Below, piece by piece: positions 18,206 through 39,218 of a stretch of DNA of 64,000 nt (its first letter is position 1; every line of letters begins with the position of its first letter). The notes beneath the pieces are model-generated. The model made no database searches. It saw only the letters and a program-made list of their open reading frames with translations, and was not told the origin of the DNA. The stretch spans positions 806,001 through 870,000 of the forward strand of contig VRMN01000002.1 in the NCBI GenBank assembly GCA_008690995.1, given 5' to 3'. A program made the translations under genes and the position numbers. The stretch is from Porphyridium purpureum (Eukaryota).

Positions 18206-18530
18206 CCCTCGCTCCGCTCGCACAGCATGACAACCACGTCAGGTCATTGAGCCGAATCAGGGCCGGGCCGTGTGGCCTGCGTGGAACGACTCATCGGTCG
18301 AAAGTGTGAGCTCAACGCTGGTCGAGTTTTCGTCGCTCGTCCGTGCGCTGCACGCTTTCTGGTGACTGACCGCACCGGGGAACGTTGAGAGGAAGTGCGG
18401 AAATCCACATGGATGACGTTCTCGCTCCTTGTGCTAGCATAGAAAAGAACGTGCTTCCTGATACATAAAAACGTTGGCGCTCGTTGATGAGATACGAGTG
18501 CGCTGGAGGCGCACGGAGAGAGGGGAGGAA

Positions 18531-18580
18531 GAGAGAGAGACACACACAGAGAGAGAGAGAGAGAAAGACACAGAGAGAGA
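18531..18580. repeat. (GA)n/(CA)n microsatellite in the PWD leader
   Basis: gagagagagacacacacagagagagag... read directly. Confidence 0.75.
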
Positions 18581-18612
18581 CAGCGATCTGTGGGCTGGCC
18601 GCAGGCAGGGAG

Positions 18613-21600
18613 ATGGCGAGCGAGGTCGTGTTCGAAGTAAAGTGTGAGACCAGGCCCGGACAGAATGTGGGACTTCTCGGCAGCGCGGTCGCGTTTGGCG
18701 CATGGGATAAGGCCAAGCCGCTGATACTGGAAACGGATCCGGATTTGTACCCGACATGGCGCTCGCAGCTCGTGCAGGTGGAGCACGGCGCCCACGAGTA
18801 CAAGTGCGTGCTGGTAGGAGATGGAAAGATTCTCAAGTGGGAGACGTCAGGACCAAACCGCGTGCTGCAGCTCGACGGAAACGAACCACAAGGCGAAGAC
18901 GGCGGTGAACAGCGCGTCATCAAAATGGTTTTCGGGCATCCTGATGGTCTCAAGGCGGACTTTCGAGATCAGAGTCCAGACGACACACCCGTCGCGTTTT
19001 CCATTCCAGAGTCCGCGGATCTGAGCCCATTTGCTCGCTTTCTGGTCGAAGAGAACGCGCACAACAAGAGCTGGCGCCGAAAGCTCGAAATAATCCGGCG
19101 CTTGTTCACCGACGAGGCATACGCTAGCAAGGCGCATTTCCAGCCGCAAGACCTCGAACAGTTGGTGATCATCGTGATATTCCTGACGTTTCTCAAGAGC
19201 GGACAGATCGTGTGCCACGAGGACGGCTCACATTATCGTCCAAACCACCACGCCAATGAAGCGCGCCAGATCGAGGAAAAATTGCGCGTGCTGGAGAACG
19301 ACTCGAATGCATTTCTGTTTCGCAAGATTTATCCGCAGCTGCCCAGCTACTCTTCCGAGTACACGGCATCCGTGCCACTGACCCGCATTCGTGACATTGC
19401 ACACCGCGGTGACATTCCTCATGAGATGAAACAAGACATCAAACACAATCTTCAGAACAAGCTGCACCGTTGCGCCGGGCCAGAGGATCTGGTGACGTGC
19501 CGTCGCATTCTAGATCAAGCGACCAGCGGAGATTACTCCGGCGGGTTTGTCGAACAGATGCAGATTTTCATGCGCGAGCTTGAAGAGTTTTTCAACGCCA
19601 AGGGACTTGAGGACGAGCTGAGTAGTTTGAAGGATAGGAATGAGCCAGCAGATGAGAGCGCACCCATCATCCAAAAATTTCTGGACGCAAAGCAAGCGCG
19701 TGGCCCCGCGTACGGACAGCTTGAAGCGTTGACTGAACTGCGCAGCCACTTTGCTCATGAACTCCACGTACTAGATGATGGAGAGAAACTTCAACGCGTC
19801 AGGCTGGCGGACACCAAATTGGAGGAGTTTGCATTCGTGCTGTTGGCTGGGATCAACCAGGAAGTTGAGCGAGATGCGTTGAACAATGAGGCGCAGTGGC
19901 AGTTTGGACTATCGTGTCTTAATATCTCACTGCAGAACATGATCCTATCCGGTACATTCAAGCAGGAAGCCAGCGCCATTGTGAATGATTTGGCCAGTGT
20001 GTCTGCTTCTGCGCCGTCCTTGCTAGCCAAGGGCGACTTGGACGCGACGCTGCGAGTGCGCGCGACAGTTGAGCGCGCCTCGCGACTTGCTGAAGAGTTT
20101 TCGGCGCTGATCAGCGAGCTGTATAGTGGGCCTGTGTTTGGGCTCGGACGCGCGCTTGGCATCCACGAGCACGCACTGGCAGTGTTTGCGGAGGCAGAAA
20201 TTCGCTCAAATATTGTGTTTCAGATGTCCCGTACAGTGCAGGTTGTGCTGAAGAAACTGCGCCAGATGCTCAAGCTTCCTCCTTGGGATGTGCTTATGCC
20301 TGGTGCCGCAACAGGTAAAGTGCTCCGCAAGGCAAACATCGAAAGTTTGAGTGATGCGGACTTGGCCACACAGTGTATTTTGTTCCTTGAATCGGCGCAA
20401 GGCGATGAAGATATTCCAGCGGCGGTGAAAGCAATCGTTCTCGCTCATGACCTGCCCCACCTGTCGCATCTCGGTGTACGAGCGCGCCAGGCTGCGTGCA
20501 TCTTTGTCTGTGCTGAAGATAAGGAAACTTTCGACGCGCTCTGGGTAGCGCATGCTGCCAAATTTGAGCGAGCCGATCATTTCAAGCTGACTGTGTCGGC
20601 AGCTGGCAAAGTCGACGTGTGCGAAGGGGCTCCGCCCACTTCAGCGGAAAGCGCGGAAGCGGTCGTCACTGCCGAAGGCCAAGCAAGCAGCAGCAACATC
20701 AGCATGGGAAAACTTGACATGTCCGCAAAGTCTGCGTTGGAGATTCTCAAAGTGAGCGCTGAAAGCTGTGGATCAAAGTGTAACTGTGCGGGTCAATTGC
20801 AGTTGTTGGCTGACAAGTCTGGTCTCTTCAAAACTCCGGCATCCCTTGGGCTGCCCTTTGGTGCGTTTTATGCAGCAGTGATTGAAGAGCGCAAGGCGGA
20901 ATACCAGGCGCTGATCGACGCGTTCGAGTCTGCGCCACGCGCATCCAAGCCTGAAGAAGCCGGGAGGCTGCGCCAGTATGTCATGGACTGCCAGGTTCCA
21001 TCTTCAATTCTCAAGGCAGTACAGAAGCAGTTTGACGCGTCCGCAAAAGTCATGGTGCGCTCCAGCGCGAACTGTGAGGACCTCGAGAACATGTCTGGTG
21101 CTGGATTGTACGATTCGATTGCCAATGTGAGCATCAGCTCCAGCGAAAGTGTTCAGAATGCGATCTTGCGCGTATGGTCAAGCGTCTGGACAACTCGAGC
21201 TTCGCTGAGCAGGTCACAGTACGGAGTCCCGCACGTGGAGGCGTACATGGGTGTGTTAATTCAGGAGATGATCACTTCGCAATACTCCTTTGTTCTGTTC
21301 AGCCAGAATCCAGTGGATGTAAGCAAAAAGGCCACCGAGGTGTACATGGAAATCGCGGTGGGGATGGGTGAGACGCTCGCGTCTGCCGCGTCGCGCGGAA
21401 GCCCGTATCGTTTTGCGGTAGATCGCGAATCGCTGTCGGTGCGAGAGATCTGTCTTGCCAACTACTCTGTGGCATTGGTGCCTGTCGCCGACGATGCGTT
21501 GTCGGATCAGCAGCACAGTGATGGTCTGACCAAGAGTGTCGTCGACTATTCAAAGGAACAGCTGACAACGGACGTCGAGTTTAGACGCACGCTGGCTGCG

Positions 21601-21723
21601 AATCTAGGCAAAATTGCTTTGCAGTTGGAAGAATCATTTGGATGCCCGCAAGACATTGAAGGTGCAGTGGTTGATGGCCAAATATATTTGGTCCAAACAC
21701 GTCCAATGGTTGTCGGTGGTTAG
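18613..21723 (+). CDS. PWD: Phosphoglucan, water dikinase (CBM20 + phospho-His + PPDK-type nucleotide-binding domain)
   Basis: N-terminal CBM20 (GSAVAFGAWD..YPTW..EYKC..WE.GPNR); HYRPNHHA; PLTRIRDIAHRGDIPH..QNKLHRCAGPEDL; PHLSHLGVRARQ; VRSSANCEDLENMSGAGLYDS; QDIEG...VQTRP. Confidence 0.93.
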   Translation: MASEVVFEVKCETRPGQNVGLLGSAVAFGAWDKAKPLILETDPDLYPTWRSQLVQVEHGAHEYKCVLVGDGKILKWETSGPNRVLQLDGNEPQGEDGGEQRVIKMVFGHPDGLKADFRDQSPDDTPVAFSIPESADLSPFARFLVEENAHNKSWRRKLEIIRRLFTDEAYASKAHFQPQDLEQLVIIVIFLTFLKSGQIVCHEDGSHYRPNHHANEARQIEEKLRVLENDSNAFLFRKIYPQLPSYSSEYTASVPLTRIRDIAHRGDIPHEMKQDIKHNLQNKLHRCAGPEDLVTCRRILDQATSGDYSGGFVEQMQIFMRELEEFFNAKGLEDELSSLKDRNEPADESAPIIQKFLDAKQARGPAYGQLEALTELRSHFAHELHVLDDGEKLQRVRLADTKLEEFAFVLLAGINQEVERDALNNEAQWQFGLSCLNISLQNMILSGTFKQEASAIVNDLASVSASAPSLLAKGDLDATLRVRATVERASRLAEEFSALISELYSGPVFGLGRALGIHEHALAVFAEAEIRSNIVFQMSRTVQVVLKKLRQMLKLPPWDVLMPGAATGKVLRKANIESLSDADLATQCILFLESAQGDEDIPAAVKAIVLAHDLPHLSHLGVRARQAACIFVCAEDKETFDALWVAHAAKFERADHFKLTVSAAGKVDVCEGAPPTSAESAEAVVTAEGQASSSNISMGKLDMSAKSALEILKVSAESCGSKCNCAGQLQLLADKSGLFKTPASLGLPFGAFYAAVIEERKAEYQALIDAFESAPRASKPEEAGRLRQYVMDCQVPSSILKAVQKQFDASAKVMVRSSANCEDLENMSGAGLYDSIANVSISSSESVQNAILRVWSSVWTTRASLSRSQYGVPHVEAYMGVLIQEMITSQYSFVLFSQNPVDVSKKATEVYMEIAVGMGETLASAASRGSPYRFAVDRESLSVREICLANYSVALVPVADDALSDQQHSDGLTKSVVDYSKEQLTTDVEFRRTLAANLGKIALQLEESFGCPQDIEGAVVDGQIYLVQTRPMVVGG

Positions 21724-22625: not shown

Positions 22626-23726
22626 ACATATTGATACTCTGGAAGTGCGTTCATCCGGACAGAAGATGAGCCAGAACGGAATCTGGTTTGTCTTGTCCGG
22701 TGTCGAAAAGACAGTACGACGTGGCCTAGACCGATGGGCTTTTTTGTGAAGCAGCTACATTCCGCTCTGTATTCTTTGCAGGAGGATGATCTCGTTCTGC
22801 TTGGCCTTGCTCAAGAATGTCGATGCCATCCGTAGCATCCAGAATCCTGGCCACATTCCTGATACGGGGCGTTTTTACGGCCGCGCAGTACATCTTGCGG
22901 GTATCTCCTGGCCGAGTGCTGGTATTTATTGTGGTCAAGACACGCACAGTCTCTGTACTGACTGTCATGATTGTCGGCCTCTGCTCCTCAATCTGTGTTC
23001 GCTGCTCCAAGTTTGGCTCGTCTGCTGCGGAATTCTTGCTGTGAGTGTTCTTGGTGCTGAAACACGCGCGAAATTTGGCTCCCAGGTTCGTGAAGAGCTC
23101 ATATTCTAGGCTCTGTGTGATGTTCCAAATTCATATTCGACGTCGAAGCCTTCCAAGCACGCTGTGCAACACGCAACAGACGCGCTGCCCTGCACCCCCG
23201 CCGTTGCGCGCTTTTTCGTCTCGCGCCTGCTTTCAGCGGCTTACACAGTACCCATCTCATGAGGTACAGTTTATCGCTGTGGCGATGTAAGCTTGGGTTT
23301 GCCCCACTGCGCGTGTGGAGAAAGCGAAGATGAGGAGCGCGCACACGGCGCAAAGCCGGTAGCTTGGGCAGTCAGCGAGCAGAGCGCTGACGGCAGGTTG
23401 AAGCTCAATCCCTTGAATTCATGTCCGCGTGTCCGCGTACAATGGCGATGGAGTTCAGCCCAGTTTTTTTTTTTTTTTTTTTTGGTCCTGGATTTTTTGC
23501 CACGTGTGCGCAACGCACTGACATGCTCAGCGCACGCATGTGATCCAGTGCGCGCGGCATGTTGGGTATAAAGGCAGCATAAAGGCCTATGGGACACAGA
23601 CAAGCGGGTGGGCCGTCTTTTCTTGTCTCTGCATGAGGATACGCAACACAATACTCAACAGTGTCGGATTATGCATAGAACAACAAGAGAAAGCACAAGC
23701 AGTTGTCAAAGCAGCGAGTTTCCCAA

Positions 23727-24133
23727 TGGCAACGTCTGTCACGCGCTCGGCAAATGCTGGGAATGTGAAAGCACATGACCGTCAGACCTGCAAGGCGGAC
23801 TCGGCGCGTTTGCATGCACAACTGGCGGCGGAAAAGTCGATCTGGCCGATGTTCCAGATGGAGGATTTGGAGCTGGACTACGTTACAGAACTCAACACCA
23901 GTCGCAACCGAGATAAATCCCACGAGCGGGAACAGATTGTAAGAATCTCAGACAGCATATTTACGGATGGAGATGCAGATCGAAAAATAGCTGCAGTGCT
24001 CGATTCACTTGCGGCTCACGAGATCGATGACCTCCCGTTTTGGCTGTGTACTGGTGAATGGTATGAGCCAACCAGAAAGCAGGGACAGATACACAACATC
24101 TCGTTTGCCCAACCCTCGCCCAGGATTATCTAG
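23727..24133 (+). CDS. Hypothetical protein (start uncertain; the frame is open from 23540)
   Basis: Globular-looking composition in an otherwise unassigned interval; no family recognised. Confidence 0.4.
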
Positions 24134-24244
24134 CAACAATCACGCGAACTGAATAACTTTGACAATCGCTTATGTAAAAACACTGAGACAAGCGACACAA
24201 GACACACCACTGCTTGCACTGAAAGGCCTCTTGCACTTGCTCAT

Positions 24245-24838
24245 CTAACAGGAACCAAGGCGCACCTTATTCGGCGTCTTGAAGCGAGAGTCATGAAACA
24301 TGGGCGTGTCCTGCTTGTCACCGCCGACGGGACCCACTGCGTGCATGAAGTAGAGCTCGGAGGCGTCGCTGAGTTCGAGATATTCGCCCGCTCGCATGTC
24401 AAAGAAGCGGTCAAACTCGACGAACGCACGATCTGACGGCGTGCTTTCTGACCCAGAAAAGGTGATGTTGATCGGGCCGCCAAGCTGTCGCTGCTTCAGC
24501 GGGGGAAGTGCGTTGGCGATGGCCTCGCGGTCTTGGAGCCTCACGCCGTCCATTGCCGTGATGTCATCCTTCACGATGAACATGTAAATCTCAGCGCCCG
24601 CCATTCCAGGCGGGCCCATCGGGTTGAGCGCAAACGCAGCCCAATGCGTCTCCTGCGTGTCCCCATCCTTGGCCAGTTCGAGCTCAATCGATAAGGTGCT
24701 GTTCTTCAGGTTCCTCACGACCCAATTGTGCTTGTATCCATACAGAGCCTGATCGCTTTCGTACACACACTCTGCACAACACACAGCCGCCGCCAACATC
24801 AGACACAGCACACCACCCACACACGCGACAGACACCAT
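24245..24838 (-). CDS. Secreted DOMON-domain protein (probable heme-binding type)
   Basis: Signal peptide MVSVACVGGVLCLMLAAAVCCA; HWAAFAL...GMAGAEIY...VEFDR...MHAVG...MFH with Met and His in ligand positions. Confidence 0.75.
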   Translation of the reverse strand: MVSVACVGGVLCLMLAAAVCCAECVYESDQALYGYKHNWVVRNLKNSTLSIELELAKDGDTQETHWAAFALNPMGPPGMAGAEIYMFIVKDDITAMDGVRLQDREAIANALPPLKQRQLGGPINITFSGSESTPSDRAFVEFDRFFDMRAGEYLELSDASELYFMHAVGPVGGDKQDTPMFHDSRFKTPNKVRLGSC

Positions 24839-25700
24839 CCTCACCACGCGTTCTTCTTCGTCGCTCCAACTTGGACCACCACAGCGAGACTGCCTTCCTG
24901 CTCTCCATCGCCTGCGGCACCAGCAACACATCTGTGTCCCTTCTACTATCTCATCGCTTCAAATACCAACGCGCGCAGCTGGCGCCACCGTGTTGGCGTC
25001 TGTGATGCGGGCTAGTTACGACAAAGGAGTCGAGACGAACGGCCAGACAGGGCTATTCCAGTTCAGACGGCAAGAGCCATCCTCGGATGTTGCACTTGCA
25101 TCCACCAGCTGCTACTGCCCGCGGCCTGCTGCCCCTGCTGCAGCTCGCGAGGTCCGCATGGTCCGCGCGTCCTCCATGCGTCTCAACGCGCTTGCTCCAA
25201 ATGGCGCAAGCTGATTGATAATCAAAGTACAGTCTGCACTGTACGTCTACTTCCACTTCCACGCACTGCCCCTAAAACTACAAATTACTTCGCGAATTCC
25301 ACCCACCCGCTGAAAGACCGTGCAATTTGCAAAGTAATTTGTGCATTTAAAATTGAGGGTACAGTTCGTACAGTTTTGAGAAGGAGTCTTGCGAGTGGTA
25401 CGCAAGCTGGAGTGGAACAGAAGCGCAGGAAGAGCAGGCGTGCGGCGATCTGATGGTTATGCGGCGCGCCGCGAAGCTGCGCTTGGAACTGCGCACGGTG
25501 TTCCGCATCTTGTTTCCGGGTCCGCTGTCAAAACCCCGCGCTCTTTTGCCGGACGAAATCTCCGCGGCAAAGCTACGCGACGTAGCTAAACGAACGCGCG
25601 CCAGTGGAGACTTGGACCGAGCAGAGACTTATTTGGGGTATCCGTGCCACGCGCAGCATTCTCGTCCTAGCTCACGTGCAGCTATTTTTGAAAGGCAGGG

Positions 25701-26549
25701 ATGAGTACGCTGAGAAATTTGAGGCGAAAGTGGAAGCCAGCGTCTGTGACATGTGTGTTGTGCTCGTCGGGGGAGCCGTTGGTTGGCGGGGCCCAGTTCC
25801 CGTCTTTTACACCACGCATCATTCGCTTCTTTTCTGAGCAAGCCGTTGTGGAAGAGCATCAGCAGCTCAACGTGACAGTCCTAGGCACAGAGGAAAATTT
25901 GGTGGAGAGCGCCACTTGTCATGAACCTCAGTCACTTGGAGCGCCGCGTGACTCGGAGCGAAACGGGCAGCAGTTACCTTTGGACTCTTGCTCTGCAATA
26001 CCCTGTAGGGATTCTCATGCAGCATCTGCGCTAGAAGCAGCGATCCGAATTTCTTTGCAGCATGTCCATGGTCTGACCGAGCGACGTGAGGCATCAAACA
26101 AGTCAAGAACCCAGATACCCACTGTACGGTACGAGATGAGCGACTTTGACCAGAACAAGCTGTCACCACCATGGGAACAACAGGCGCAGAGGCCCTCCAG
26201 CAGGCAAACAATCAGCGAGTGTGTGCCTTACAGTATGGCGGACTTTGATCCTGCCACAATGACTCCTCCGTGGGAATCGGAACCGGACGGCGACAAGTTG
26301 CGCACAATGAGCAATAGACCTGCATCAGGTGAGGTGGAGTATTTACTTTCGGAGAACGGGCTTAAGTTCCGCAGCGGGTCGGATTCACAGCAACTTGTGG
26401 TGAAAAATTGCCCCTTCTGTCATCCAATCAAGGGCATGCCGGACAACCAATACAAGCTCAACATACATCGTGAAAAAGGCGTGTTTTTTTGTTTTCGCTG
26501 CGGTGCAGCGGGCAATTGGGCCTCACTCTGTCGTCAGCTAGCTAGTTGA
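25701..26549 (+). CDS. Stand-alone Twinkle/T7-gp4-type primase zinc-binding-domain protein, copy 1
   Basis: C-terminal YLLSENGL..QLVVKNCPFCH..NQYKLNIHREKGVFFCFRCGAAGNWASL; basic presequence-like N-terminus. Confidence 0.75.
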   Translation: MSTLRNLRRKWKPASVTCVLCSSGEPLVGGAQFPSFTPRIIRFFSEQAVVEEHQQLNVTVLGTEENLVESATCHEPQSLGAPRDSERNGQQLPLDSCSAIPCRDSHAASALEAAIRISLQHVHGLTERREASNKSRTQIPTVRYEMSDFDQNKLSPPWEQQAQRPSSRQTISECVPYSMADFDPATMTPPWESEPDGDKLRTMSNRPASGEVEYLLSENGLKFRSGSDSQQLVVKNCPFCHPIKGMPDNQYKLNIHREKGVFFCFRCGAAGNWASLCRQLAS

Positions 26550-27046
26550 GTCGGAACGCGACCCCAGAAAAAGTTCAGCCCTCTAGGCCAAGTTCATTGA
26601 CATCCCATCTCCCGCCGATGTGCAGGTTGCACCAAGCTCAGTGGGGCAATAAAGATGCTGCCATTGAAGCGCGCGAATCTGCATGTCTACTGGAATCGAT
26701 GAATGGGACATTGCCGAGGATGGACGGTCCTGCACGTGATCGATTTGGCGTGAATGTGTCTTGTCACACCTGAAGGACCACATCGTGGCGTAAAATTGTC
26801 ATACAATGTTCAGATTCGCTTCAGCTCATCGGCTGCAAATTGCGCGGCTGGAGCGTAACGGCGAGCTCAGTGGATGATTCCGAGCGGTCTGGTTCTTCAA
26901 CATCTCATGAATATGTGTTGCATGTGACTCGTCGACCTGACCGCACCTGGACAGAGGCCTCACACTTGAAGAGCCTGATGTCTGGGCTTTCCAAGGATCA
27001 GAAGCAGCGCAGCCGATGCACCGCGCCCTGGCTTTCTTTTCCATGA
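26546..27046 (+). pseudogene. Possible decayed primase-domain remnant following ZBD copy 1
   Basis: Shifted frame with RFGVNV, an in-frame TGA at 26771-26773, then QLIGCKLR, resembling the primase FGV...K.R motifs. Confidence 0.35.
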
Positions 27047-27177
27047 AAGGCTGAGACCACGTGGGCGCCTCAATTTTCCCCTTTGACCGCGCCATGAAAT
27101 AAATTATCAGAATTTTTTTTCCGCCGAGAGTCGCGGGCACGACATGAAGACGTTCTGTTCGATCGGCAGCGAGAACG

Positions 27178-28023
27178 ATGTCAGCGGCCTTCCGACGGAT
27201 ACCACGTGCGCTCGGCCGTTTGGATGTGGGGATTGGTCGAACAGTCTTGCTGCGCGATGCATTGCGTTACACCCCCAGAAACGTGTCATTTGGTTGGGTG
27301 CCGATGCGTATGCTGTGGATTGTGTCAAAGCGCACCGAGCGACAACATCGATTGCGGTACCGCAGAGTAGAATCGGTCGCATATTTTGCGTCGCGGAAAG
27401 AAGGCGGGGAGAACCGAAATTCGCGAGGCTCAGAGGAGAACGCGAAATGGATCCCTTTCCGGGACGACGAATCGCCAGGTCAATCTTACGAGGACCAGCC
27501 ACATGAATGGGACATGCCGGCAAAAGAAACCGATGACTTTGACGAGCTGGAGGACGAACTTGCAACAGGCGCACTAGACGAGTCGCCCAGGATGCTCGTT
27601 TCTGGGCGGCAGAGGACTCGTCGAGACGACGAACAGAGTGAACAGGGGCGTCAGGGTGACCTGCACGAATGGGATGACGCGGAAGACCAGAACTGGTACC
27701 CCGAAGATGTGTACGCAAGCGACGATGAGTCTAAGAAGCAGTTCCCGCCACTTCGAGAGCAACCATTGCCAGACCATGTCTACCCTGGCGATCCGGAAAA
27801 GTTGAAGGCGTTCTTGACTGAAAATGGATGCATTGTCAAGGATAGGATTGGACCGGGTGGGGAGTATGTAGGCGTTTTAAATTGCCCATTCTGCCACCAG
27901 AAGGGCAAGCCTTGGAATAAGGAGTACAACCTGAGGATCCGCCGCTCGTCTGGAATCTACCGGTGCTCTCGCTGCCACGCGTATGGAGACTGGGATTCGC
28001 TGCGTTTCTATATAAGTTTATAG
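27178..28023 (+). CDS. Stand-alone Twinkle-type primase zinc-binding-domain protein, copy 2
   Basis: AFLTENG..VLNCPFCHQKGKPWNKEYNLRIRRSSGIYRCSRCHAYGDWDSL; Arg-rich presequence; acidic middle region. Confidence 0.78.
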   Translation: MSAAFRRIPRALGRLDVGIGRTVLLRDALRYTPRNVSFGWVPMRMLWIVSKRTERQHRLRYRRVESVAYFASRKEGGENRNSRGSEENAKWIPFRDDESPGQSYEDQPHEWDMPAKETDDFDELEDELATGALDESPRMLVSGRQRTRRDDEQSEQGRQGDLHEWDDAEDQNWYPEDVYASDDESKKQFPPLREQPLPDHVYPGDPEKLKAFLTENGCIVKDRIGPGGEYVGVLNCPFCHQKGKPWNKEYNLRIRRSSGIYRCSRCHAYGDWDSLRFYISL

Positions 28024-28099
28024 AGACAACGCTCACAAAGCTTAGCACAGGAAAGATAAACATATTGACGAGCGGCCGAGGCCACTCGCGAGCGCCGCG

Positions 28100-28870
28100 A
28101 TGTACGCGCGGTCCGCGCGGTCCGCGCGGATGCCAACCGTATTTGGCTATTGCACCATTCCGACGCGCTTTCTCGAAAGTCGTGCACGTGGTGCCGCGTT
28201 GCGCCGCGCCATGGGTGACTACGGAGAGTGTGCGGCGGCCTGGGCCTACTTGGAGCAGCAGCGCCGGCTCCGGCCAAGTACGGCGGAACACTTTGGGGTC
28301 AAGGTGGAGCCCGGCGCGTTTGTGTTTCCGATCTTCTCCGCCGGTGGCGAGGTAGTCATGGAAAAGAGGCGCCAGCTCAGGTATAAAAGCTTTTCGTATC
28401 GTCGTTTGACCGAGGAGCGCGTTGAGCTTCGAGACACGCTCCCTTTCGGCCTCCACTGTGTGCCCAAAGACGCATCTGAAGTGGCAGTCACCGAGGGGGA
28501 ATTCGATGCAATGTCCGTCTTTCAGGAGACAGGCATACCTGCCGTGTCTCTGAGCTCTGCGTCGCAAACGCTGTCGCAGACATTTGAACAGTGCTTCCGG
28601 CGCTTCAACATTGTGTACCTGTGGTTAGACCACGATGCTGCGGGCATGAAAGCCAAGCAAAAGCTGTTGGAGCTGCTTGGCTATTTTCGATGTAAGGTCG
28701 TGCAGCACGATCTCTTTGGCTGCAAAGACGCAAACGACGCGCTTCAGAAGGGCATGGACTTGAAAGTGATTCTGGGAAGCGCACAATGGCCGACGCATCC
28801 GACGCAGATTACTTATGCAGATCTGCACAAAGATGTGGAAAGTACGTTCCCCAAGTTAAAGCCGAAGTAG
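28100..28870 (+). CDS. Twinkle-type primase catalytic (RPD/TOPRIM) domain as a separate ORF
   Basis: YLEQQRRL..HFGV..VFP..KRR; PFGLH; VTEGEFDAMSVFQETGIPAVSL; LWLDHDAAG; KDANDAL. A possible 55-nt intron (28842-28896) would extend the C-terminus to 29090. Confidence 0.88.
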   Translation: MYARSARSARMPTVFGYCTIPTRFLESRARGAALRRAMGDYGECAAAWAYLEQQRRLRPSTAEHFGVKVEPGAFVFPIFSAGGEVVMEKRRQLRYKSFSYRRLTEERVELRDTLPFGLHCVPKDASEVAVTEGEFDAMSVFQETGIPAVSLSSASQTLSQTFEQCFRRFNIVYLWLDHDAAGMKAKQKLLELLGYFRCKVVQHDLFGCKDANDALQKGMDLKVILGSAQWPTHPTQITYADLHKDVESTFPKLKPK

Positions 28871-29055
28871 AGTAACGGAGCCTGCGAAAATGGCAGATTT
28901 ATTTAAGCAAACGGAGAACGAACTGCGAAAGGAACAGACGCGAGCGCTCAAACCACCAGGGCGCGGTCGCCATCTGCGGGAGAGGAAAGCGAAAAGGGAA
29001 CATGCTCTTGTCAAATGTGGCCTGGTTCGTTCCAACGGCGGTACCGAAAATAGGC

Positions 29056-29526
29056 TCAAAGGCCCGGAGCACTCGCATTGGCCTTCATAATGGCACGCGA
29101 CCGAGCCAGCAAGAGACCATCAAGGAAGCTGTGGAGCATTTCCGACTCGATGCACGCATGCTGCTCAGATACGCGCGATGTCGCGAGAACCGCAGTCAGG
29201 ATAAATGTGTTGCACTCGAACTCTGCGGGGCTGAAAGACCTGCACATTCGCGCGAGCATATCTGCGTAAATCAGTTTGTGTAGCACGAGGGAGCACTCGG
29301 ACGCCTTCAGCTCACGCGTATTGAGCATCAAGTCTTCGTTCACAATGCCATACTCGGCACTGTCTAAGCCAGGATTCGGGAACGCGTGCAAGTAGCTGTC
29401 ATCCCCGCCATTCACGATTCCCGACGTGTCATACTCATCGCTGGTCTGACGCTGCGCTGCGGCAATGCGTGCCACTAGCACCAAGCCGAACAGCAGCACG
29501 ACAGTCATACCTCGTGCAGCCGCCAT
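29056..29526 (-). CDS. Hypothetical secreted Cys-containing protein
   Basis: Signal peptide MAAARGMTVVLLFGLVLVARIAAA; four Cys in the mature region; coding-like codon usage. Confidence 0.6.
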   Translation of the reverse strand: MAAARGMTVVLLFGLVLVARIAAAQRQTSDEYDTSGIVNGGDDSYLHAFPNPGLDSAEYGIVNEDLMLNTRELKASECSLVLHKLIYADMLARMCRSFSPAEFECNTFILTAVLATSRVSEQHACIESEMLHSFLDGLLLARSRAIMKANASAPGL

Positions 29527-30330
29527 GATGATACCTCTCTGCCTGCCTTGTTATTACGCCGTGGTCGACAGCTCAGTAGGTAAACGAAAATCAAAGAGAT
29601 CAAGGCCCTTTACCCAAAACTGTCTCCAAATTTGACTTGCAACGTTGTCCCTCCACACCTTACGTCTCGCATCGTCTCCCGCAACCAAGAGCCATCCGAG
29701 TGCCGCTTATATACACGCTCATTCGAGTCGCGGGCCGTGCCCTCTCGAGCCCAAACCATGGCGCTTTCAAAGGCCACCCCGCACGGCAGAAGCGAAAGGG
29801 TACTCGCTGCCACATTTCAAAACCAAGGGGCACTCGCCCTTGCTCAACGCTCCGAGGTGGAAACCCAGACGTTGAAATCCTGGACGGCAATCGGGCACAC
29901 AGAACGTTTCCGGCGCGTGAATCTAGACAGACACATCACACGCAGGCGCACATACACGCGCGCGCGCACGCAAGCACATATAGCGACCTTGCATCGACCC
30001 GGCACAGGCCCTTCTCGCATACACCTCGCCGCCTGCACAGACGGACGGACGGGCGGACGGACACGCCACGCCAGTGGCGGGGGTACAGCTATCACTGTAC
30101 TTTGATCTCGTACAGTGGTAACTGTACTTATGTGTGGTACAGCTGTCAAACGATCCGGAAGTACAGTGCAGGGTAACGGGCGACGGTAAGCGCGGAGGCG
30201 CGGGAAAAGACGATACGCGAGTTGGTGTGTTGATTGTCGTTCACTGTGGACGCGTGTGGATTTGGCGAGGATATTTGCGTCAGTTATTCAGTGAGAACGT
30301 TGCCTGGCGTGGCGCATTGGGCTCCGGAGG

Positions 30331-31443
30331 ATGATGAACCGCGTGCGCCGTTTGGTGGCGGCGGGGTTCGCGCCGCTGGGTGGGCGATGCATGAGTACGT
30401 ATGCCGGAATATCCAAGCAGGGCTTGACCATACCACCGGAAATCGCATCGTTTCTGCCCGCGGGGAGAGTTGCCAGGCGTCCGCCTCTGCATGAAGTGCG
30501 CAGTGACTTGATAGGTGACGACGTAGCGGCGATTCCAAAACCGCGAATCCCGCCCGTGCCGGATAGCTTGAATCCTTTGGCCCTTTATCTTGAGTCTGAG
30601 TCGTACTATGCGCGGCTGCGTTTCGAGCTTGAGAATCCGGACATATTCACGGGCCGACCCAACTTCTTTTTCAAGGAACTCGACAAGCACCTGAAGGGAC
30701 TTCGGGAAAGAGAGTTTACCGTTTTCACGGGAAAGACGGGCACGGGCAAGACCACGTTTATTGCCCAATACACGTTGGGATACATGCTCGACCAGAAGGA
30801 GCCCACTCCCACCATGTGGGGCTCGTACGAAATGGGCAACCAGAAGCTTGTCAAAATGAAGATGCGGCAGTTCATGTTCGCGAAAAACCCGGCGCTGGGC
30901 ATGCAGACGTCAAAGTCAGTGGACGACCTGCTGCTTGAATCGTTGGACGACGTGTCAGCGGAATTCAGAAAGTTGCCGTTGTACTTCCTGAACACGAAAA
31001 GAGCCTTTGATCTTGGGTCATTGAGGAGCGTGGTGCAAGATCTCGGCATTAAGCACATGGTGCTCGACAACCTGCAGTTCATTGCCGGTGAAGTCGGGGT
31101 AGGAAACAAGAAATTTGACTGCATGGATGACTTGGTGCGCAATCTTAGAGATTTCGCCGATGAGTATGATCTGCACGTGACTTTGATTGCACACCCGCGC
31201 AAGGAGAATGCTAGAAAACTGACCATTCAATCTTTGTTTGGCTCGGGCAAGTTGTCGCAAGAATCAGACAATGTGATCGCTCTCCAGTTGCCCGACCGAG
31301 CGGAGTCAAGACAAACGCGTCTCGTGCAAATCTTGAAGCAGCGCGAAGGCGGAAATCTTGTAGAAACAAAGGTGGTGTACAACCCGAGAACGTGCCTCTA
31401 CGAGGAGATTTCGCCGAATCCATTTTTACCTGACACTGACTAA
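30331..31443 (+). CDS. Twinkle-type SF4 (DnaB-like) helicase domain as a separate ORF with mitochondrial presequence
   Basis: HLKGLREREFTVFTGKTGTGKTTF, WGSYEM, VLDNLQF, HVTLIAHPRKE, GSGKLSQESDNVI and ILKQR; N-terminus MMNRVRRLVAAGFAPLGGRCMST. Confidence 0.92.
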   Translation: MMNRVRRLVAAGFAPLGGRCMSTYAGISKQGLTIPPEIASFLPAGRVARRPPLHEVRSDLIGDDVAAIPKPRIPPVPDSLNPLALYLESESYYARLRFELENPDIFTGRPNFFFKELDKHLKGLREREFTVFTGKTGTGKTTFIAQYTLGYMLDQKEPTPTMWGSYEMGNQKLVKMKMRQFMFAKNPALGMQTSKSVDDLLLESLDDVSAEFRKLPLYFLNTKRAFDLGSLRSVVQDLGIKHMVLDNLQFIAGEVGVGNKKFDCMDDLVRNLRDFADEYDLHVTLIAHPRKENARKLTIQSLFGSGKLSQESDNVIALQLPDRAESRQTRLVQILKQREGGNLVETKVVYNPRTCLYEEISPNPFLPDTD

Positions 31444-31566
31444 CTAGTACGTCGCGCGCGCGTTTATTTGATTTATTTCTATTTAAGCTCTTGACTAGAG
31501 AGCGTGAGGCAAGCTAGCCTCTCAAATTTATTTTTTTACCTGAACAATCAAAAGAGACAATACTAC

Positions 31567-32679
31567 CTACGTTGCCCCTGCCGATTCATATTTCACGCCC
31601 AGCATGGTGCACTTTTCGTAGAGGTCAGCAAAATCGTTCACAAAAAGCTTGCTATTTGCCGCGTACTTTTGCAGTTCGGCGAACAGTTCTGGGTCGTCCA
31701 GCATTGCCTTATCGCGAGCCGACAGCTCCGACAAGTCGCCCTTCTTTTTCAAGGCAAGAAGCTCTTTCAAATATGAATTGTCAAACTTGGTCCCGGGAAG
31801 CTTCAACGTGGCCACATTGGTTTCTACCAGCACTGCTCCACGCGTCTTCTTTGTAACTTTTCCGTACGTCAAGTCGCCTTCTTCGTACGCCGCATCTTCG
31901 TCGTCGTCTCCGCCAGCCATGCTCTTCTTCGCCTCGGCGTTCTTCTGGCCAATCGACTGCAGAACACCGTACGCGCCGTGATACACCACAGCCGAGGCTG
32001 CTGCATTAAGCCCGGATTTCGCAAATGTATATTTAATCTGAGGCGCAGACGCGCCGCTGCCTAGGCCATCCATGTCGCCGGCCTCAACCGGATCCGCTTG
32101 CTTAACATCCTCACGACCCAGCTGGATCACGATGCGGGGTCCTCCAACGATCTCAGAGACGACGGCGCCACCAAAAGCATACAGATCTGCCACCGATGCA
32201 TCCTTGACGCGCGCGCGAATCGAATCCACGGCCTCTGCGGCCTCCTTGACGTTCGCATTGTACGCGAGATCGAGCTCGTACGCGAGAGAGCCATTCGGTC
32301 CACCATTACCGGTAGTCTTTGAGTATGTCAGACTGTCGTGGATAGCTAGCGCCATAACGCTCGCCAACAACTCGGGGCCCTCCGACAGCAAGTTTCTAAA
32401 GCCTTGCTTGATTCGATTGATCTCCGAGACTTTCATTTCCTTGTCGCCATACTTTTCAGTATCCACAAAGACCGCCGCCTGCGCGGCTCGCGGAAGCAAA
32501 TTTGTGGCTCCGACGGCGGCCGCGAGTGCCATCGCGGACGCCGCGTGCAAAACCTCACGGCGGCTGGTCACCGGCGGGCTCGGGTCTGCGGCCAAGCCTC
32601 GATCTGTGCACATGCAGCACGTCGAGCGCCGATACGAAGGCAGGCATGGCGGTACGCCAGCAGGCACAAACAAGAACAT
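31567..32679 (-). CDS. Thylakoid lumen ascorbate-peroxidase-like protein (TL29/APX4 family)
   Basis: Transit peptide MFLFV..., Tat signal SRREVL...AAQA; PELLASVMALAIHDSLTYSKTTGNGGPNGSL, SVADL..GG, LGRED, KFDNSY and D.AMLDDPE. Confidence 0.85.
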   Translation of the reverse strand: MFLFVPAGVPPCLPSYRRSTCCMCTDRGLAADPSPPVTSRREVLHAASAMALAAAVGATNLLPRAAQAAVFVDTEKYGDKEMKVSEINRIKQGFRNLLSEGPELLASVMALAIHDSLTYSKTTGNGGPNGSLAYELDLAYNANVKEAAEAVDSIRARVKDASVADLYAFGGAVVSEIVGGPRIVIQLGREDVKQADPVEAGDMDGLGSGASAPQIKYTFAKSGLNAAASAVVYHGAYGVLQSIGQKNAEAKKSMAGGDDDEDAAYEEGDLTYGKVTKKTRGAVLVETNVATLKLPGTKFDNSYLKELLALKKKGDLSELSARDKAMLDDPELFAELQKYAANSKLFVNDFADLYEKCTMLGVKYESAGAT

Positions 32680-32843
32680 GGTCCTGCGTTGCAACGGTAA
32701 CTGTTCCACGGGATTCTAAAGCGTTCGTCTTCTCCGCTTGCTCTCGGCCTTGGCCATGCCGTGCAGTCGAAAGATTCTTCCACCTGCCTTGGGACAGCAG
32801 ATACTAATAAAAATGGTCCATTTAATAATAATTGCGAACGTTG

Positions 32844-33773
32844 CTATCGCTTGGAGATTACGCGTTTGGCGTGCTGGGGCACAAAGCCCATCTGGTTATT
32901 GTGGCTTCGTTGCGCGCGGACAGTCCGCGACCACTTGGACTTTGGGTTTGGTTTATCTGGACGCACGTCTAGCATTGTGGCCGCGCGCATCAGAAGCGTC
33001 ACATTAAGTCTCCTTGACGGGATCTCGACCGGCCGGCTGCGCCGCCATTTTAAGAGCGCAACGTCATCGGACACTGGCTCGTCGCGTTCCAGGGCGCACC
33101 ATTGGCCCCGGCTTTCTTCTACCTCTACACACAACGCCCGCATGGCTCGCCTTGGCCCAAAGTGTTCGTTGAAAACGACGTTGCATGCGCTGTCATTCAC
33201 CCATTCAACCCAGCGCGGACCGAAGGACCCGAAAAGATCGACGATTTCTGGCGTGCTTAACGCGTCCACGCCGTGTACGTGCAGTGCATTCGGGCGCACG
33301 TCTTCTTCGTTTGGATTCACATAACGCGGCGGCTCCAGAACCGCCAGCGGTGTCCTTTCCGCCTCTGGCAGAGGTGGAGCCGATGCGTCTGCCGAACCAT
33401 TCCCAGCGTCACCTGCGCCCGCGAGCACTTCGTGAGCGGACGAGTCAAGGTTGAATCGCTTTGCGCGGGCAGCACCCTTTCGCAATTCTTCCTCGCTGGT
33501 AGGATCAAAGCCCACGCCGAGGCCCGCGACGGCGGCAGTGTATCGCCTGACGCCCAGCACGGCGGTTTCTTTCGGCCTGACCAGCGGCACGCCGAACCGC
33601 GCGGCGCGCTGTTCGTGTTTTTTCCTCGCCTCCTCCATCTGCCTATTGACCAGCTCATCCACCGAGGGCTGTTGCTGGCTGTGCCTGTGCGTGTGCGCAC
33701 GCACGCCATCGAGCGCCACGGGCTGTATTTCTCCGACAGGCTGCACGCCATCTTCTGCAGCAGAGCGCTCCAT
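32844..33773 (-). CDS. NCBP3: Nuclear cap-binding protein subunit 3-like (DUF2414)
   Basis: RPNALHVHGVDALSTPEI..F..FGPRWVEWVNDSACNVVF; RAARFG/RAKRF repeats; LLMRAAT..D. Confidence 0.82.
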   Translation of the reverse strand: MERSAAEDGVQPVGEIQPVALDGVRAHTHRHSQQQPSVDELVNRQMEEARKKHEQRAARFGVPLVRPKETAVLGVRRYTAAVAGLGVGFDPTSEEELRKGAARAKRFNLDSSAHEVLAGAGDAGNGSADASAPPLPEAERTPLAVLEPPRYVNPNEEDVRPNALHVHGVDALSTPEIVDLFGSFGPRWVEWVNDSACNVVFNEHFGPRRAMRALCVEVEESRGQWCALERDEPVSDDVALLKWRRSRPVEIPSRRLNVTLLMRAATMLDVRPDKPNPKSKWSRTVRAQRSHNNQMGFVPQHAKRVISKR

Positions 33774-34806
33774 CACATCACACACACCACCGCACAGCCT
33801 TCCGTCGCTTGTCTCATACACCCACCGGGAGAAATACGACTTGCCTCGATCCCTTGTACGTCGCCACCCCTGCATCCTCTTCACCCACCTACCCCACCTC
33901 ACCCGTACTCCCTGCCCTCTTCCCCAATCAACCTTTCCAGTCATTCTTCAATCTATCTATCAAAACCCCTCCGTCCTTCTGTAGAGACGTGTCCGAAAAA
34001 TGATGGTGACTCGCACACTGTACACTACCTATCATCTTCCTACTGGAATGCATGTTCTTTTATACATAAATTTAACACGACAGAGGTACAGTGGGTGTTC
34101 TTGGTTGTGCTTTTTTTGGGTTGGGTTGTTTTGTCTGTTTTTCGAAACGGCCCGCATGATTTACCTAGTAAAAACGACGAACTGTATAGTAAAAGGCGCG
34201 GATGGTGCAGTTGGACGAAGAGAAACCGAAATGCGGATGTGGATGGGGATTGTGGAAGAGGAGGAGGGGAAGGAGGAGACTGAGAGTGGGAGAAGGGGAG
34301 AAGGATTGATGGTTGGGTGCGTGTGGTGGGTTGGTGGGGCGGAGCAACGTGAGAGGCGAGGGGGGTTGAGGAGGAGGAGATAGATTAGGGGGGGGAGGAC
34401 GGGGAGTGTATGCGCTGGACGGCATTGAGGACGGTGGGAGGTGGAAACGTTCACGTGGGGTTGTGGATCGCCGGGTGGGGTGACGTGGGTGTCGGCGGGG
34501 GACACAGGAAGAGCGAAGAGGAGCGGGTAGAGCGGGAGGGCAGCGTGGGGAGCGGCGGGAAAGGGGGCGCGGCGCGTAGAAGCGTCGAGGTGTGGATCGG
34601 AAAGTTGAGGGATATGAGTGCGGGTGTGTAGATGGATCGCGCACGGAGTGAGGAGGAAGCCTGAGGAGAGGACACAGCGCCGGCGAGGCGGGAGCGGGAA
34701 CTGACTGACTGACAGATTGGTGCAGTGGTAGATTGATTGGGTAGTTGCTTGACGGCTCTCTGCCCTAGTGGCTGGGGACTGACAGCGCGTACATAAGGAG
34801 GCGGCC

Positions 34807-37940: not shown

Positions 37941-39218
37941 CTAGTTAGATGCAAGAGCAGAGATCATATCGGCGACTTGGCGTTGTAGCGCAGCAAGCTG
38001 TTGCAGTTGCTCAACCTTATTTGCTGCAGAGAACGCTTCTTCCTTCTGTGGTGGCGCCTTGTGCTCCGTTTTATGCGTGGAAGCCGTCGAGTACCAGGTC
38101 TCCTGGTGATCTTCGAACTCAAACGGTTCCGAACTTGTAGGAAACCTGTTTTCCTTTTCATGCGCTGCTGATGCCGTGGAGCCCTGTCTGTACCGACTCG
38201 CAACCTCGTCACGCAGTGATCGCGTCTGATGGGAGGCGCTGGACTGTTGACTCCCGGTCTGCGGGATTGGTCTTTGACTCAGGACGGGCCTTCTGAGCAT
38301 TTGATTTCGTGGGCGTCTCCGAAGCGCTTGTGCAACCGATGACTCCATATCTTTCAATAAAACGTTGTTCAGTTGTCCGCCATATTCCTGAACAAATTCA
38401 CGCAGAGGCAACGACCGCACCTTTCGAGGGAGCTTCATCATCTGTACTCGGTACGCATTCCGAATCGAAAAGGCCGCATTTTGAGATAGCGTGCGCAGCT
38501 CAGAGCAACGAGCATCAATCTCAACATCAATTTCTTCCATGATATTATCGATGCGTTGAATGGTGCGAGACCGTTTGCCAGGCTGCCGGGACGCCCGAGC
38601 GTGGTCGTCGGAGCCTTCGTACATTGTTCCAGACGGCAGTGATTTGACGGGGCTGGCGCTTAATTCTTCATGTCCTCGCTTTTGCTTGGATGTCTCAGAT
38701 GTCTGTTCTGCTCGCGGTTCTGGTACCTGCTCGGAAGCCGAGGCAGGTTGACCTTGAGATCCTTCGTGTGCTTTTTCAGCCTCGACTTCTTCTTTGAGAT
38801 TCAGAATCGCTCCACTGCTCACTCGTTTGCCACGAGCATGTCTTTCACTGGAATGATGACTTGATGACGACGTCGGGGAGGCGTTTGGATCTGAATCGTC
38901 ATCATCGTCGCGAAGCTCGGCTCGAATGGCTAACGCGAGTAGCACTTGAAGCTGCTGCAGGCTCCAGGTCTTCTTCACGTCGGCATGGAACTTTGGCACT
39001 GCAACTGGCGCGTCATGAATGTCTTTCAAATGCATCTGTGCTCCTTGCTGCCACCAGTGCGGCTTTAGCTGTGGCTTCCAGAGCACGCGTTTCGCGTCCT
39101 GCGCGTCGCGCACATACCTGAGCACCTCGCGCTCCAGCGCGCGCTTCTGCGGCTCCACAGAACACACGCCCTGCACCACGCGCCCATCATCCACAACCTC
39201 CACATCCAGCTGCTGCAT
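37941..39218 (-). CDS. Protein containing a Borealin/Nbl1 N-terminal-type domain plus an extra N-terminal domain
   Basis: IMEEIDVEIDARCSELR......IRNAYRVQMMKLPRKVRSLPLREF matches the Borealin_N pattern. Confidence 0.6.
   Translation of the reverse strand: MQQLDVEVVDDGRVVQGVCSVEPQKRALEREVLRYVRDAQDAKRVLWKPQLKPHWWQQGAQMHLKDIHDAPVAVPKFHADVKKTWSLQQLQVLLALAIRAELRDDDDDSDPNASPTSSSSHHSSERHARGKRVSSGAILNLKEEVEAEKAHEGSQGQPASASEQVPEPRAEQTSETSKQKRGHEELSASPVKSLPSGTMYEGSDDHARASRQPGKRSRTIQRIDNIMEEIDVEIDARCSELRTLSQNAAFSIRNAYRVQMMKLPRKVRSLPLREFVQEYGGQLNNVLLKDMESSVAQALRRRPRNQMLRRPVLSQRPIPQTGSQQSSASHQTRSLRDEVASRYRQGSTASAAHEKENRFPTSSEPFEFEDHQETWYSTASTHKTEHKAPPQKEEAFSAANKVEQLQQLAALQRQVADMISALASN

What the first reader, a model, noticed from the sequence alone, without database searches (positions are those of the whole stretch)
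25701..31443. Twinkle primase-helicase apparently split into separate, clustered genes
Seen: four co-oriented ORFs carry the Twinkle/T7-gp4 domains in native order: ZBD (25701-26549), a second ZBD (27178-28023), TOPRIM primase (28100-28870) and SF4 helicase (30331-31443). Each ends in a stop and begins with a new basic, acid-poor leader (MSTLRNLRRKW, MSAAFRRIPRAL, MYARSARSAR, MMNRVRRL...GRCMST). Catalytic motifs look intact: CxxC...CxxC, EGEFD, DHD, KDAND, Walker A GKT, DNLQF and the KQR arginine finger. An opposite-strand gene and a promoter-like motif cluster lie between primase and helicase. Established: Twinkle is normally one polypeptide, and the T7 gp4 ZBD can act in trans between subunits. 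Inference: this may be a multi-subunit organellar primosome produced by gene fission, with each piece separately imported into mitochondria.
Basis: partly seen in the sequence, partly recalled or inferred. Interest (0 to 1): 0.9.

Follow-up and report, generated by a model that had tools for sequence, protein, structure and literature searches.

The report
Mitochondrial primase-helicase split into four genes
In this alga (likely a single-celled red alga), the gene for Twinkle, the enzyme that normally unwinds and primes mitochondrial DNA as one protein, is split into four separate intact genes, whose products are likely imported one by one and would have to reassemble inside the mitochondrion.

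Summary
The split is real. Four intronless + strand genes encode two Twinkle-type zinc-binding domains (ZBD1, ZBD2), a complete primase catalytic domain and an SF4 helicase. An independent DNA contig spans all four without an indel, and 8 of 8 runs show no splice joint. Strain variants are mostly silent (15 of 24; pN/pS 0.18). All four start with a basic leader, against 2 of 22 control genes. The other red-algal-clade Twinkles found are fused. The linker helix that holds Twinkle rings together is partly present in both the primase tail and the helicase start, which suggests duplication followed by reciprocal truncation. Best reading: a mitochondrial primosome rebuilt from separate subunits. 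Import, binding and primase activity are untested. All pieces are fast-evolving, the primase has lost a conserved PNGA motif, and an intact copy elsewhere is not excluded because no genome was held. Helicase-only Twinkles recur in fungi and a mite. A free ZBD plus free catalytic domain was not found elsewhere or in the papers searched; a 2014 table lists two neighbouring 'partial' Porphyridium Twinkles without comment.

The parts
25227..25373 (.). Cluster of four GTACAG/CTGTAC hexamers upstream of ZBD1, between divergent genes; likely promoter element
   Evidence: motif 51x vs 15.1 expected; RNA-like contigs begin at 25414-25470; function inferred
25701..26549 (+). ZBD1 gene (282 aa): basic leader, about 200-aa unconserved region, C-terminal Twinkle-type Cys4 zinc-binding domain (about 26313-26546)
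   Evidence: all 3 variants in the domain are silent and all 6 amino-acid variants lie in residues 16-196
26124..26282 (+). Two copies (26124-26183, 26223-26282) of a 20-aa acidic-aromatic motif, Y.M.DFD....PPWE, in ZBD1; candidate docking motif
   Evidence: (score 64; 0 of 200 shuffles reach it); role inferred
27178..28023 (+). ZBD2 gene (281 aa): basic leader, acidic middle, more divergent Twinkle-type Cys4 zinc-binding domain (about 27775-28020)
   Evidence: 5 of 5 variants silent
27460..27675 (+). Two copies (27460-27513, 27622-27675) of an 18-aa acidic motif, RDDE...HEWD, in ZBD2
   Evidence: (1 of 200 shuffles reach the score)
28100..28870 (+). Primase catalytic (RPD/TOPRIM) gene (256 aa) with its own basic leader; acidic residues E132, D136, D177, D179, D210 and basic K89/R91/K96 kept; PNGA and GGxW motifs lost
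   Evidence: pLDDT 84; best fold match human Twinkle, E 1.6e-11; T7 alignment
28796..28849 (+). C-terminal linker-helix remnant of the primase (residues 233-250); Y239 aligns with human F370
   Evidence: helix 239-249 in the model
29056..29526 (-). Unrelated 156-aa orphan gene with a hydrophobic, signal-peptide-like N-terminus, lying between primase and helicase
   Evidence: (no Pfam match); signal peptide judged by eye
30083..30166 (.). Six GTACAG/CTGTAC hexamers upstream of the helicase gene; likely its own promoter
   Evidence: RNA-like contigs stop at 29932-30008 and restart at 30246-30292, while DNA contigs X5 and X8 run through; weak hint
30331..31443 (+). SF4 helicase gene (370 aa): basic leader, own linker helix (residues 89-101, 30595-30633), Walker A, catalytic E167, DNLQF, HPRK, K336/R338
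   Evidence: pLDDT 82; helix 89-101

Best explanation
The ancestral red-algal Twinkle gene is split here into four intact nuclear genes (two zinc-binding domains, a primase catalytic domain and a helicase), which likely encode separately imported mitochondrial proteins that are predicted to reassemble non-covalently into a working primosome. Shown: the four genes, their stops and new leaders, intact catalytic motifs, purifying selection on three of them, and fused homologs in the red-algal clade. Inferred: (1) Origin by local duplication and reciprocal truncation, since the ZBD is present twice and the linker helix is partly present in both primase and helicase. (2) The helicase forms a ring through its own linker helix (89-101). 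(3) The primase docks on the ring through its retained C-terminal linker helix, much as DnaG docks on DnaB. (4) ZBD1, the better conserved copy, reads the priming site and hands primers to the organellar polymerase, held in place by its new acidic-aromatic repeats instead of a covalent linker. ZBD2 would be a second specificity or regulatory subunit.
For: Split is genomic and unspliced. Selection: 15 silent vs 9 amino-acid variants over the four ORFs, pN/pS 0.18, p 3.6e-5; per gene ZBD1 6/6, ZBD2 5/0, helicase 4/2. Leaders: net charge +4 in the first 25 aa for 4 of 4, against 2 of 22 control genes, one of them a mitochondrial-type L22; Fisher p 0.001. Leaders are disordered in both models. Native origin: ZBD1 and primase have most of their best hits in a helicase-tree clade that holds named Agarophyton and Pyropia proteins; AU tests do not reject grouping with that clade (p 0.65, 0.98, 0.73). 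All 10 clade members read have primase and helicase in one chain. Primase chemistry: E132/D136/D177/D179/D210 align with T7 chain positions 157/161/207/209/237. Linker: the primase tail keeps H..IT(F/Y).DL..(D/E)V, the helicase keeps ELENP; this helix docks in a groove of the neighbouring helicase domain in fish Twinkle (PMC9723800, passages). Free T7 ZBD plus catalytic domain can make oligoribonucleotides at low efficiency (PMC2910064), ZBDs are swappable specificity modules (PMC10557236), and the isolated Arabidopsis zinc finger binds Pol1B (PMC6554949). C. merolae Twinkle is mitochondrial only (PMC3914683).
Against: No import, binding or activity was tested. The primase has only one variant, and it changes an amino acid (F65Y), so polymorphism shows no selection on it. 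It has lost PNGA and the GGx(W/A) motif, both present in 10 of 10 red-clade proteins. All pieces sit on long branches (primase 1.79, helicase 1.44-1.68, ZBD2 2.55), and the helicase is no closer to red-clade proteins than to others (33% each). The free trees did not place primase or helicase in the red clade. In T7 the length of the ZBD linker is critical, and separated domains do not bind template stably (PMC2910064). The helicase's own linker has lost the F370 and R374 equivalents. Helicase-only Twinkles occur elsewhere, so the helicase may not need these partners. The arrangement was seen in this one lineage only. An intact copy elsewhere is not excluded. The leader test is crude and cannot separate mitochondrial from plastid targeting.
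Confidence: 0.55

Rival explanations
1. The split is real, but only the helicase works in replication, as a helicase-only Twinkle. The primase domain and the ZBDs are kept for other jobs (DNA binding, polymerase binding, helicase loading) or are slowly decaying, and priming is done by another enzyme such as the phage-type RNA polymerase, as in animals.
For: Helicase-only Twinkles with a basic leader and linker helix recur: 16 of 149 representative hits passed my filter, at least one of them (P0054) a fragment of a fused protein. Four are named: Halotydeus, Coelomomyces, Gongronella, Catenaria. The primase lost PNGA and GGxW, sits on a long branch and shows no polymorphism signal. Free T7 domains are inefficient (PMC2910064).
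Against: Every acidic catalytic residue and the basic K-x-R..K motif survive despite about 63% divergence from red-clade proteins. Primase-dead human and fish Twinkle have lost several of them. Both ZBDs keep four cysteines, and their genes show an excess of silent variants. Each piece has its own leader.
Confidence: 0.27
2. An intact Twinkle exists elsewhere in the genome and does the replication; this cluster is a set of fast-evolving duplicate fragments with accessory roles, like Arabidopsis Twinky.
For: The genome could not be searched. Only the best 150 of 2,150 representative hits were listed, and most are unnamed. Long branches fit relaxed duplicates. Arabidopsis keeps a primase-only paralog next to a full gene (PMC4166229, PMC6554949).
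Against: A BLAST-based table lists only two partial Twinkles, contig653.2 and contig653.4, for Porphyridium purpureum (PMC4166229 Table 1). That layout fits this window, but the species is inferred. No second DNA copy at 80% identity appeared in 4 runs. Together the pieces make one complete domain set in native order.
Confidence: 0.1
3. The pieces are rejoined after transcription (minor cis-splicing, trans-splicing, frameshift or readthrough), above all ZBD2 and the primase, which are only 76 nt apart.
For: Contigs of X13, X19 and X1 run unbroken from about 27150 to 29930-30008 across ZBD2 and primase. There is no GTACAG cluster before the primase. Contigs drop rare forms.
Against: No joint in 8 of 8 runs. 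No GT[AG][AC]G donor in 27800-28030 and no CTRAY branch site in 28000-28260. The 76-nt gap has stops in both the ZBD2 frame and the primase frame, so one readthrough or one frameshift cannot join them. X18 breaks at 28074/28081. The primase has its own basic leader.
Confidence: 0.05
4. Assembly error or pseudogene: a single Twinkle broken by sequencing errors or dead mutations.
For: A 2014 table calls the Porphyridium models 'partial'.
Against: An independent gap-free 7.5-kb DNA contig; gaps of 628 and 1,460 nt, the second holding a whole gene; new leaders; pN/pS 0.18; intact motifs.
Confidence: 0.02

Closest known systems
Red-algal Twinkle (C. merolae CMT452C; Agarophyton chilense CAN8073490.1; Pyropia vietnamensis GAB0492116.1)
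   Same: Same ZBD type, primase motifs, linker and helicase motifs, in the same order. The C. merolae protein is mitochondrial (PMC3914683).
   Different: There it is one polypeptide with one ZBD. Here there are four genes, four leaders, two ZBDs and an intervening gene, and the pieces are only 33-37% identical to red-clade proteins, which are 51-55% identical to each other.
Bacteriophage T7 gp4 (63-kDa and 56-kDa forms)
   Same: Same folds. A ZBD can serve the catalytic domain of an adjacent subunit, and the primase and helicase halves are active when expressed apart (PMC2910064).
   Different: The T7 ZBD is always tethered, and free domains work poorly. The shorter T7 form comes from the same gene (recalled), not from separate genes.
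Arabidopsis Twinky (At1g30660)
   Same: A stand-alone primase part of Twinkle encoded by its own gene (PMC4166229, PMC6554949).
   Different: It is described as the primase domain as a whole, it coexists with full-length At1g30680, and it has no matching helicase-only or ZBD-only partner.
Helicase-only Twinkle proteins (Catenaria ORZ30195.1, Coelomomyces KAJ1506732.1, Gongronella KAI8064779.1, Halotydeus KAI1280567.1)
   Same: Basic leader, linker helix and SF4 domain without a primase.
   Different: They are gene models, and whether those genomes also hold separate primase or ZBD genes was not tested. They fall in several places in the tree, with no supported grouping with this helicase.
Bacterial DnaG/DnaB primosome
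   Same: Primase and SF4 helicase as separate polypeptides that dock through a C-terminal primase element (PMC12593628, passages). This is the working model here.
   Different: DnaG keeps its ZBD in the same chain and uses a different helicase-binding domain. The pieces here are Twinkle by sequence and fold, not DnaG or DnaB.

Membership tests
Twinkle / T7 gp4 primase-helicase | SF4 helicase domain closest to Twinkle, with Walker A, catalytic Glu, DNLQF, HPRK and Arg finger | tested here: met
   one near-invariant Asn is Q337
Twinkle / T7 gp4 primase-helicase | TOPRIM primase domain with the five acidic catalytic residues and the basic N-terminal motif | tested here: met
   the flanking PNGA and GGxW motifs are lost; the T7 numbering of the basic motif is recalled
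Twinkle / T7 gp4 primase-helicase | Cys4 zinc-binding domain of Twinkle type | tested here: met
   two copies
Twinkle / T7 gp4 primase-helicase | All three domains in one polypeptide | tested here: not met
   four ORFs, no joint
Twinkle / T7 gp4 primase-helicase | Primase-helicase linker helix for ring assembly | tested here: inconclusive
   present in part in both primase (residues 233-250) and helicase (89-101); the helicase copy lacks the F370/R374 equivalents
Twinkle / T7 gp4 primase-helicase | Mitochondrial localisation | tested here: inconclusive
   basic leaders in 4 of 4 vs 2 of 22 controls; no targeting predictor or experiment available
Twinkle / T7 gp4 primase-helicase | Helicase and primase activity, hexameric ring | not testable with these tools
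   needs biochemistry
Red-algal Twinkle orthologs (vertical descent) | Groups with red-algal Twinkles in trees | tested here: inconclusive
   the ZBDs fall in a weakly supported group with red-clade rows and 4 other rows; primase and helicase are unplaced long branches; AU p 0.65/0.98/0.73 does not reject the grouping
Twinky-type accessory paralog | Coexists with a full-length Twinkle in the same genome | not testable with these tools
   no genome held; a published table lists none for P. purpureum
Bacterial/plastid DnaG and DnaB | Closest sequence and fold matches are DnaG/DnaB | tested here: not met
   Twinkle and T7 gp4 rank above DnaG and DnaB

The most novel reading that the evidence does not exclude
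This is a eukaryotic organelle primosome built from four separately encoded and imported subunits: a helicase ring, a primase catalytic subunit that plugs in through a duplicated linker helix, and two interchangeable free zinc-finger subunits that work like sigma factors to choose priming sites. It would be a natural DnaG/gp4-type primase in which recognition and catalysis are on different proteins, and it might bear on the enlarged, repeat-rich mitochondrial genomes of Porphyridium.
Probability: 0.35. Interest if true: 0.88.

Novelty: new variant of a known kind. Interest (0 to 1): 0.72.

Why it matters
T7 biochemistry holds that the zinc-binding domain must be tethered to the catalytic domain for efficient priming. 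A eukaryote that keeps the two as separate selected genes, with two ZBD versions, gives a ready set of four small proteins with which to test how recognition, catalysis and helicase loading can be coupled without a covalent link, and whether priming specificity can be switched by subunit exchange. It also shows that a replication enzyme can be cut at each domain boundary while every piece gains its own leader, and it warns that 'partial' Twinkle models in protist genomes can be real genes.

Tried and rejected
Whole-genome search for an intact copy: not possible, no genome held. Complex prediction, primase 42-256 with helicase 75-365: no answer (score 0.00, mark 0.34; alignments were not used); it is no evidence either way. 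ZBD-primase binding was not modelled (one job only). Close relatives with the same split: none found. The primase search gave 8 hits among 1,041 candidates, best non-self 47% over a short stretch. The helicase search gave 9 among 5,615. The ZBD1 search gave only itself among 10 candidates, and it missed ZBD2 and P0007, so it is insensitive. The representative search gave at most 41% identity. The single-protein metagenome scan found nothing. None has a gap like the 1,460 nt here; many of these loci look phage-like. Depth figures were not used for expression. Only X18 and X20 (one study) are RNA on record; X13, X17 and X19 are guessed RNA; X1 is labelled DNA but breaks like RNA. DNA self-comparison of 24001-33000 showed no significant repeat (best E 0.068). 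The ZBD1 PDB search gave only weak zinc-knuckle matches. In the leader test one control row (62395-63402) was read on the wrong strand and dropped, leaving 22. Paper searches that found no description of a split Twinkle: (0 papers). Shutt and Gray 2006 was seen only as a citation. Supplements were not opened; the Twinkle tree in the supplement of PMC3914683 may bear on how Porphyridium was treated.
Full report
Setting. The window is gene-dense eukaryotic DNA of about 55% GC with long uninterrupted ORFs. Neighbours include a peroxidase-fold protein, NCBP3, a glucan water dikinase and an L22 protein. No genome was held. I infer a unicellular red alga, probably Porphyridium. A review table lists P. 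purpureum Twinkle as two partial models, contig653.2 and contig653.4, that is, two neighbours with one model between them (PMC4166229, passages and Table 1), which fits the layout here. Most of the best hits of ZBD1 and the primase fall in a clade holding named red algae. No tool named the species.

The four ORFs, their leaders and motifs are as stated. Primase and helicase have Twinkle as best PDB hit by sequence, and the primase also by fold (pLDDT 84, Foldseek E 1.6e-11). The helicase model is confident from about residue 80 on. The two zinc domains resemble each other only over 69 residues (45%) and match the N-terminal ZBD of fused Twinkles; the Atlas model of ZBD1 has a Twinkle cluster as its top structural row. 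Their roughly 200-residue N-terminal parts had no match among the 164 homologs searched. All four ORFs are already annotated as separate proteins.

The split is in the DNA and is not repaired by splicing in the data at hand. Eight public runs were laid on 24000-33000. X8 has one gap-free contig over 24145-31659 with 33 substitutions. The only indel listed in any run is a 1-nt loss at 31531, outside the ORFs. No run shows a joint. RNA and RNA-like contigs (X13, X17, X18, X19 and X1) stop between about 26700 and 27150 and between 29930 and 30290, where X5 and X8 run through. This is a weak hint of separate transcripts for ZBD1 and the helicase, and it agrees with GTACAG clusters upstream of both. 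ZBD2 and primase are bridged by unspliced contigs in three runs; X18 breaks at 28074/28081 and two X17 pieces overlap by only 28 nt there, so one or two transcripts cannot be told apart. Either way the 76-nt gap has stops in both relevant frames and no consensus donor or branch site. All of these are contigs, which show neither strand nor ends and drop rare forms; only X18 and X20 are RNA on record.

The genes look alive. Of 24 listed coding variants in the four ORFs, 15 are silent (pN/pS 0.18, p 3.6e-5; 7 rows were not shown). By gene, silent/amino-acid counts are ZBD1 6/6, ZBD2 5/0, helicase 4/2 and primase 0/1. All six ZBD1 changes lie outside the zinc domain. The primase thus has no polymorphism support, but it keeps the five acidic residues that align with the T7 catalytic positions and the K-x-R..K motif, at only 37% identity to red-clade proteins. 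Against this, it has lost PNGA and GGxW. Each ORF begins with net charge +4 in 25 residues; 2 of 22 control genes reach that (p 0.001). This is a crude test. Red-algal Twinkle is mitochondrial only in C. merolae, whose plastid uses DnaB and DnaG (PMC3914683, passages).

Origin. The exhaustive helicase search found 2,150 homologs and none above 41% identity among the best 150. A clade with support 0.96 (FastTree) or 91 (SH-aLRT) holds Agarophyton and Pyropia proteins and nine others without a known name (one, P0106, was not looked up). All 10 that I read have primase and helicase in one chain, and 7 show the whole ZBD; the other 3 are N-terminally short. The window's pieces are long branches. 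Free trees leave primase and helicase unplaced, constrained trees with the red clade score higher and are not rejected, and the helicase is equally distant from red and other Twinkles. Vertical descent followed by fast evolution is the simplest reading, but it is not shown. Among 80 metagenome loci none has this layout. Helicase-only Twinkles with a leader do recur in fungi, a mite and unnamed sources, so that piece alone is not unique. No stand-alone ZBD of this kind turned up in a eukaryote, though that search was weak. Short ZBD-like phage proteins of 64-92 aa exist.

Mechanism. In fused red-clade proteins the linker reads H..I.(T/S)F.DLR..V..EL.NP. The primase tail keeps the first part (H233 to V246) and the helicase keeps the last part (ELENP) on its own helix 89-101. 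By alignment to human Twinkle, primase Y239 stands for F370 and V246 for V377, while the helicase has Ser and Tyr at the F370 and R374 positions (counted back from L100 = L381). In fish Twinkle this helix stacks in a hydrophobic groove of the neighbouring helicase domain (PMC9723800, passages). The overlap suggests duplication and reciprocal truncation, and it suggests that the primase tail could dock in that groove. Both ZBD proteins carry new twice-repeated acidic-aromatic motifs (0 and 1 of 200 shuffles) that could replace the lost covalent tether. These steps are inference. The T7 precedent cuts both ways: a ZBD can serve an adjacent subunit, and free domains make product at low efficiency, but linker length is critical and free domains do not bind template stably (PMC2910064, passages). 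ZBD swaps change the priming site (PMC10557236, abstract and first part), so two ZBDs could mean two specificities. Porphyridium mitochondrial genomes are 3-6 times larger than in other red algae and repeat-rich (PMC8742464, abstract); a link is speculative.

Literature. Searches found no description of a split Twinkle; only the 'partial' entries of the 2014 table touch it. Also seen, as passages only: PMC6554949, PMC5737085, PMC6963530, PMC12230644, PMC7050145, PMC12593628, PMC8995046. Most subscription papers are not in the library, and no supplements were opened. One unchecked note of this scan describes a phage whose primase catalytic domain is divided between two genes (e1-3434103); it is a loose parallel only.

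Verdict. The fission is real (about 0.95) and the genes are probably functional (about 0.85). A reassembled, active primosome is the best single reading (0.55); a working helicase with repurposed or fading primase parts is the main rival (0.27). It works like Twinkle in parts, but it fails the one-polypeptide criterion, so I rate it a new variant of a known kind, interest 0.72.

Noticed in passing
window 340-370, 4421-4439, 7106-7149, 12618-12967, 25227-25373, 30083-30166, 34018-34091, 39372-39478: The GTACAG/CTGTAC hexamer occurs 51 times against 15.1 expected and clusters in intergenic DNA upstream of genes, often between divergent genes; likely a species-wide promoter element.
   Followed up: partly
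P0025, P0026, P0081, P0153, P0020 and about ten unnamed proteins: Helicase-only Twinkle proteins with a basic leader and linker helix recur in Blastocladiomycota, Mucoromycota, a mite and unnamed eukaryotes, in several parts of the tree; Catenaria has two. No paper describing them was found.
   Followed up: partly
window 29056-29526 (-): A 156-aa orphan with a hydrophobic N-terminus and several cysteines, no Pfam match, sits inside the Twinkle cluster; no coding variant was listed in 8 runs.
   Followed up: no
P0007 (381 aa, 2,177-nt contig): ZBD plus primase ending just after KDAND with no helicase; possibly a Twinky-like primase-only protein or a truncated model.
   Followed up: no
L014, L018, L019, L022, L024, L028, L032, L034, L036, L045: Metagenome Twinkle loci whose primase-helicase frame opens only under NCBI table 6 (ciliate-type code); they keep TOPRIM matches.
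   Followed up: partly
window 4839-5864 (-): A bacterial-looking HNH endonuclease gene (Pfam HNH_5, E 3e-15) with an N-terminal extension, in the nuclear genome.
   Followed up: no
window 24145-24151: Contigs of X1, X8 and X20 break here, with loose ends in X1 and X20, which suggests a strain difference or repeat at the end of the 23633-24133 ORF.
   Followed up: no
window 18487-21723 (+), 31567-32679 (-), 32844-33944 (-), 37941-39218 (-): Ordinary neighbours: CBM20-containing glucan water dikinase, peroxidase-fold protein (TL29-like by eye), NCBP3, Borealin.
   Followed up: no
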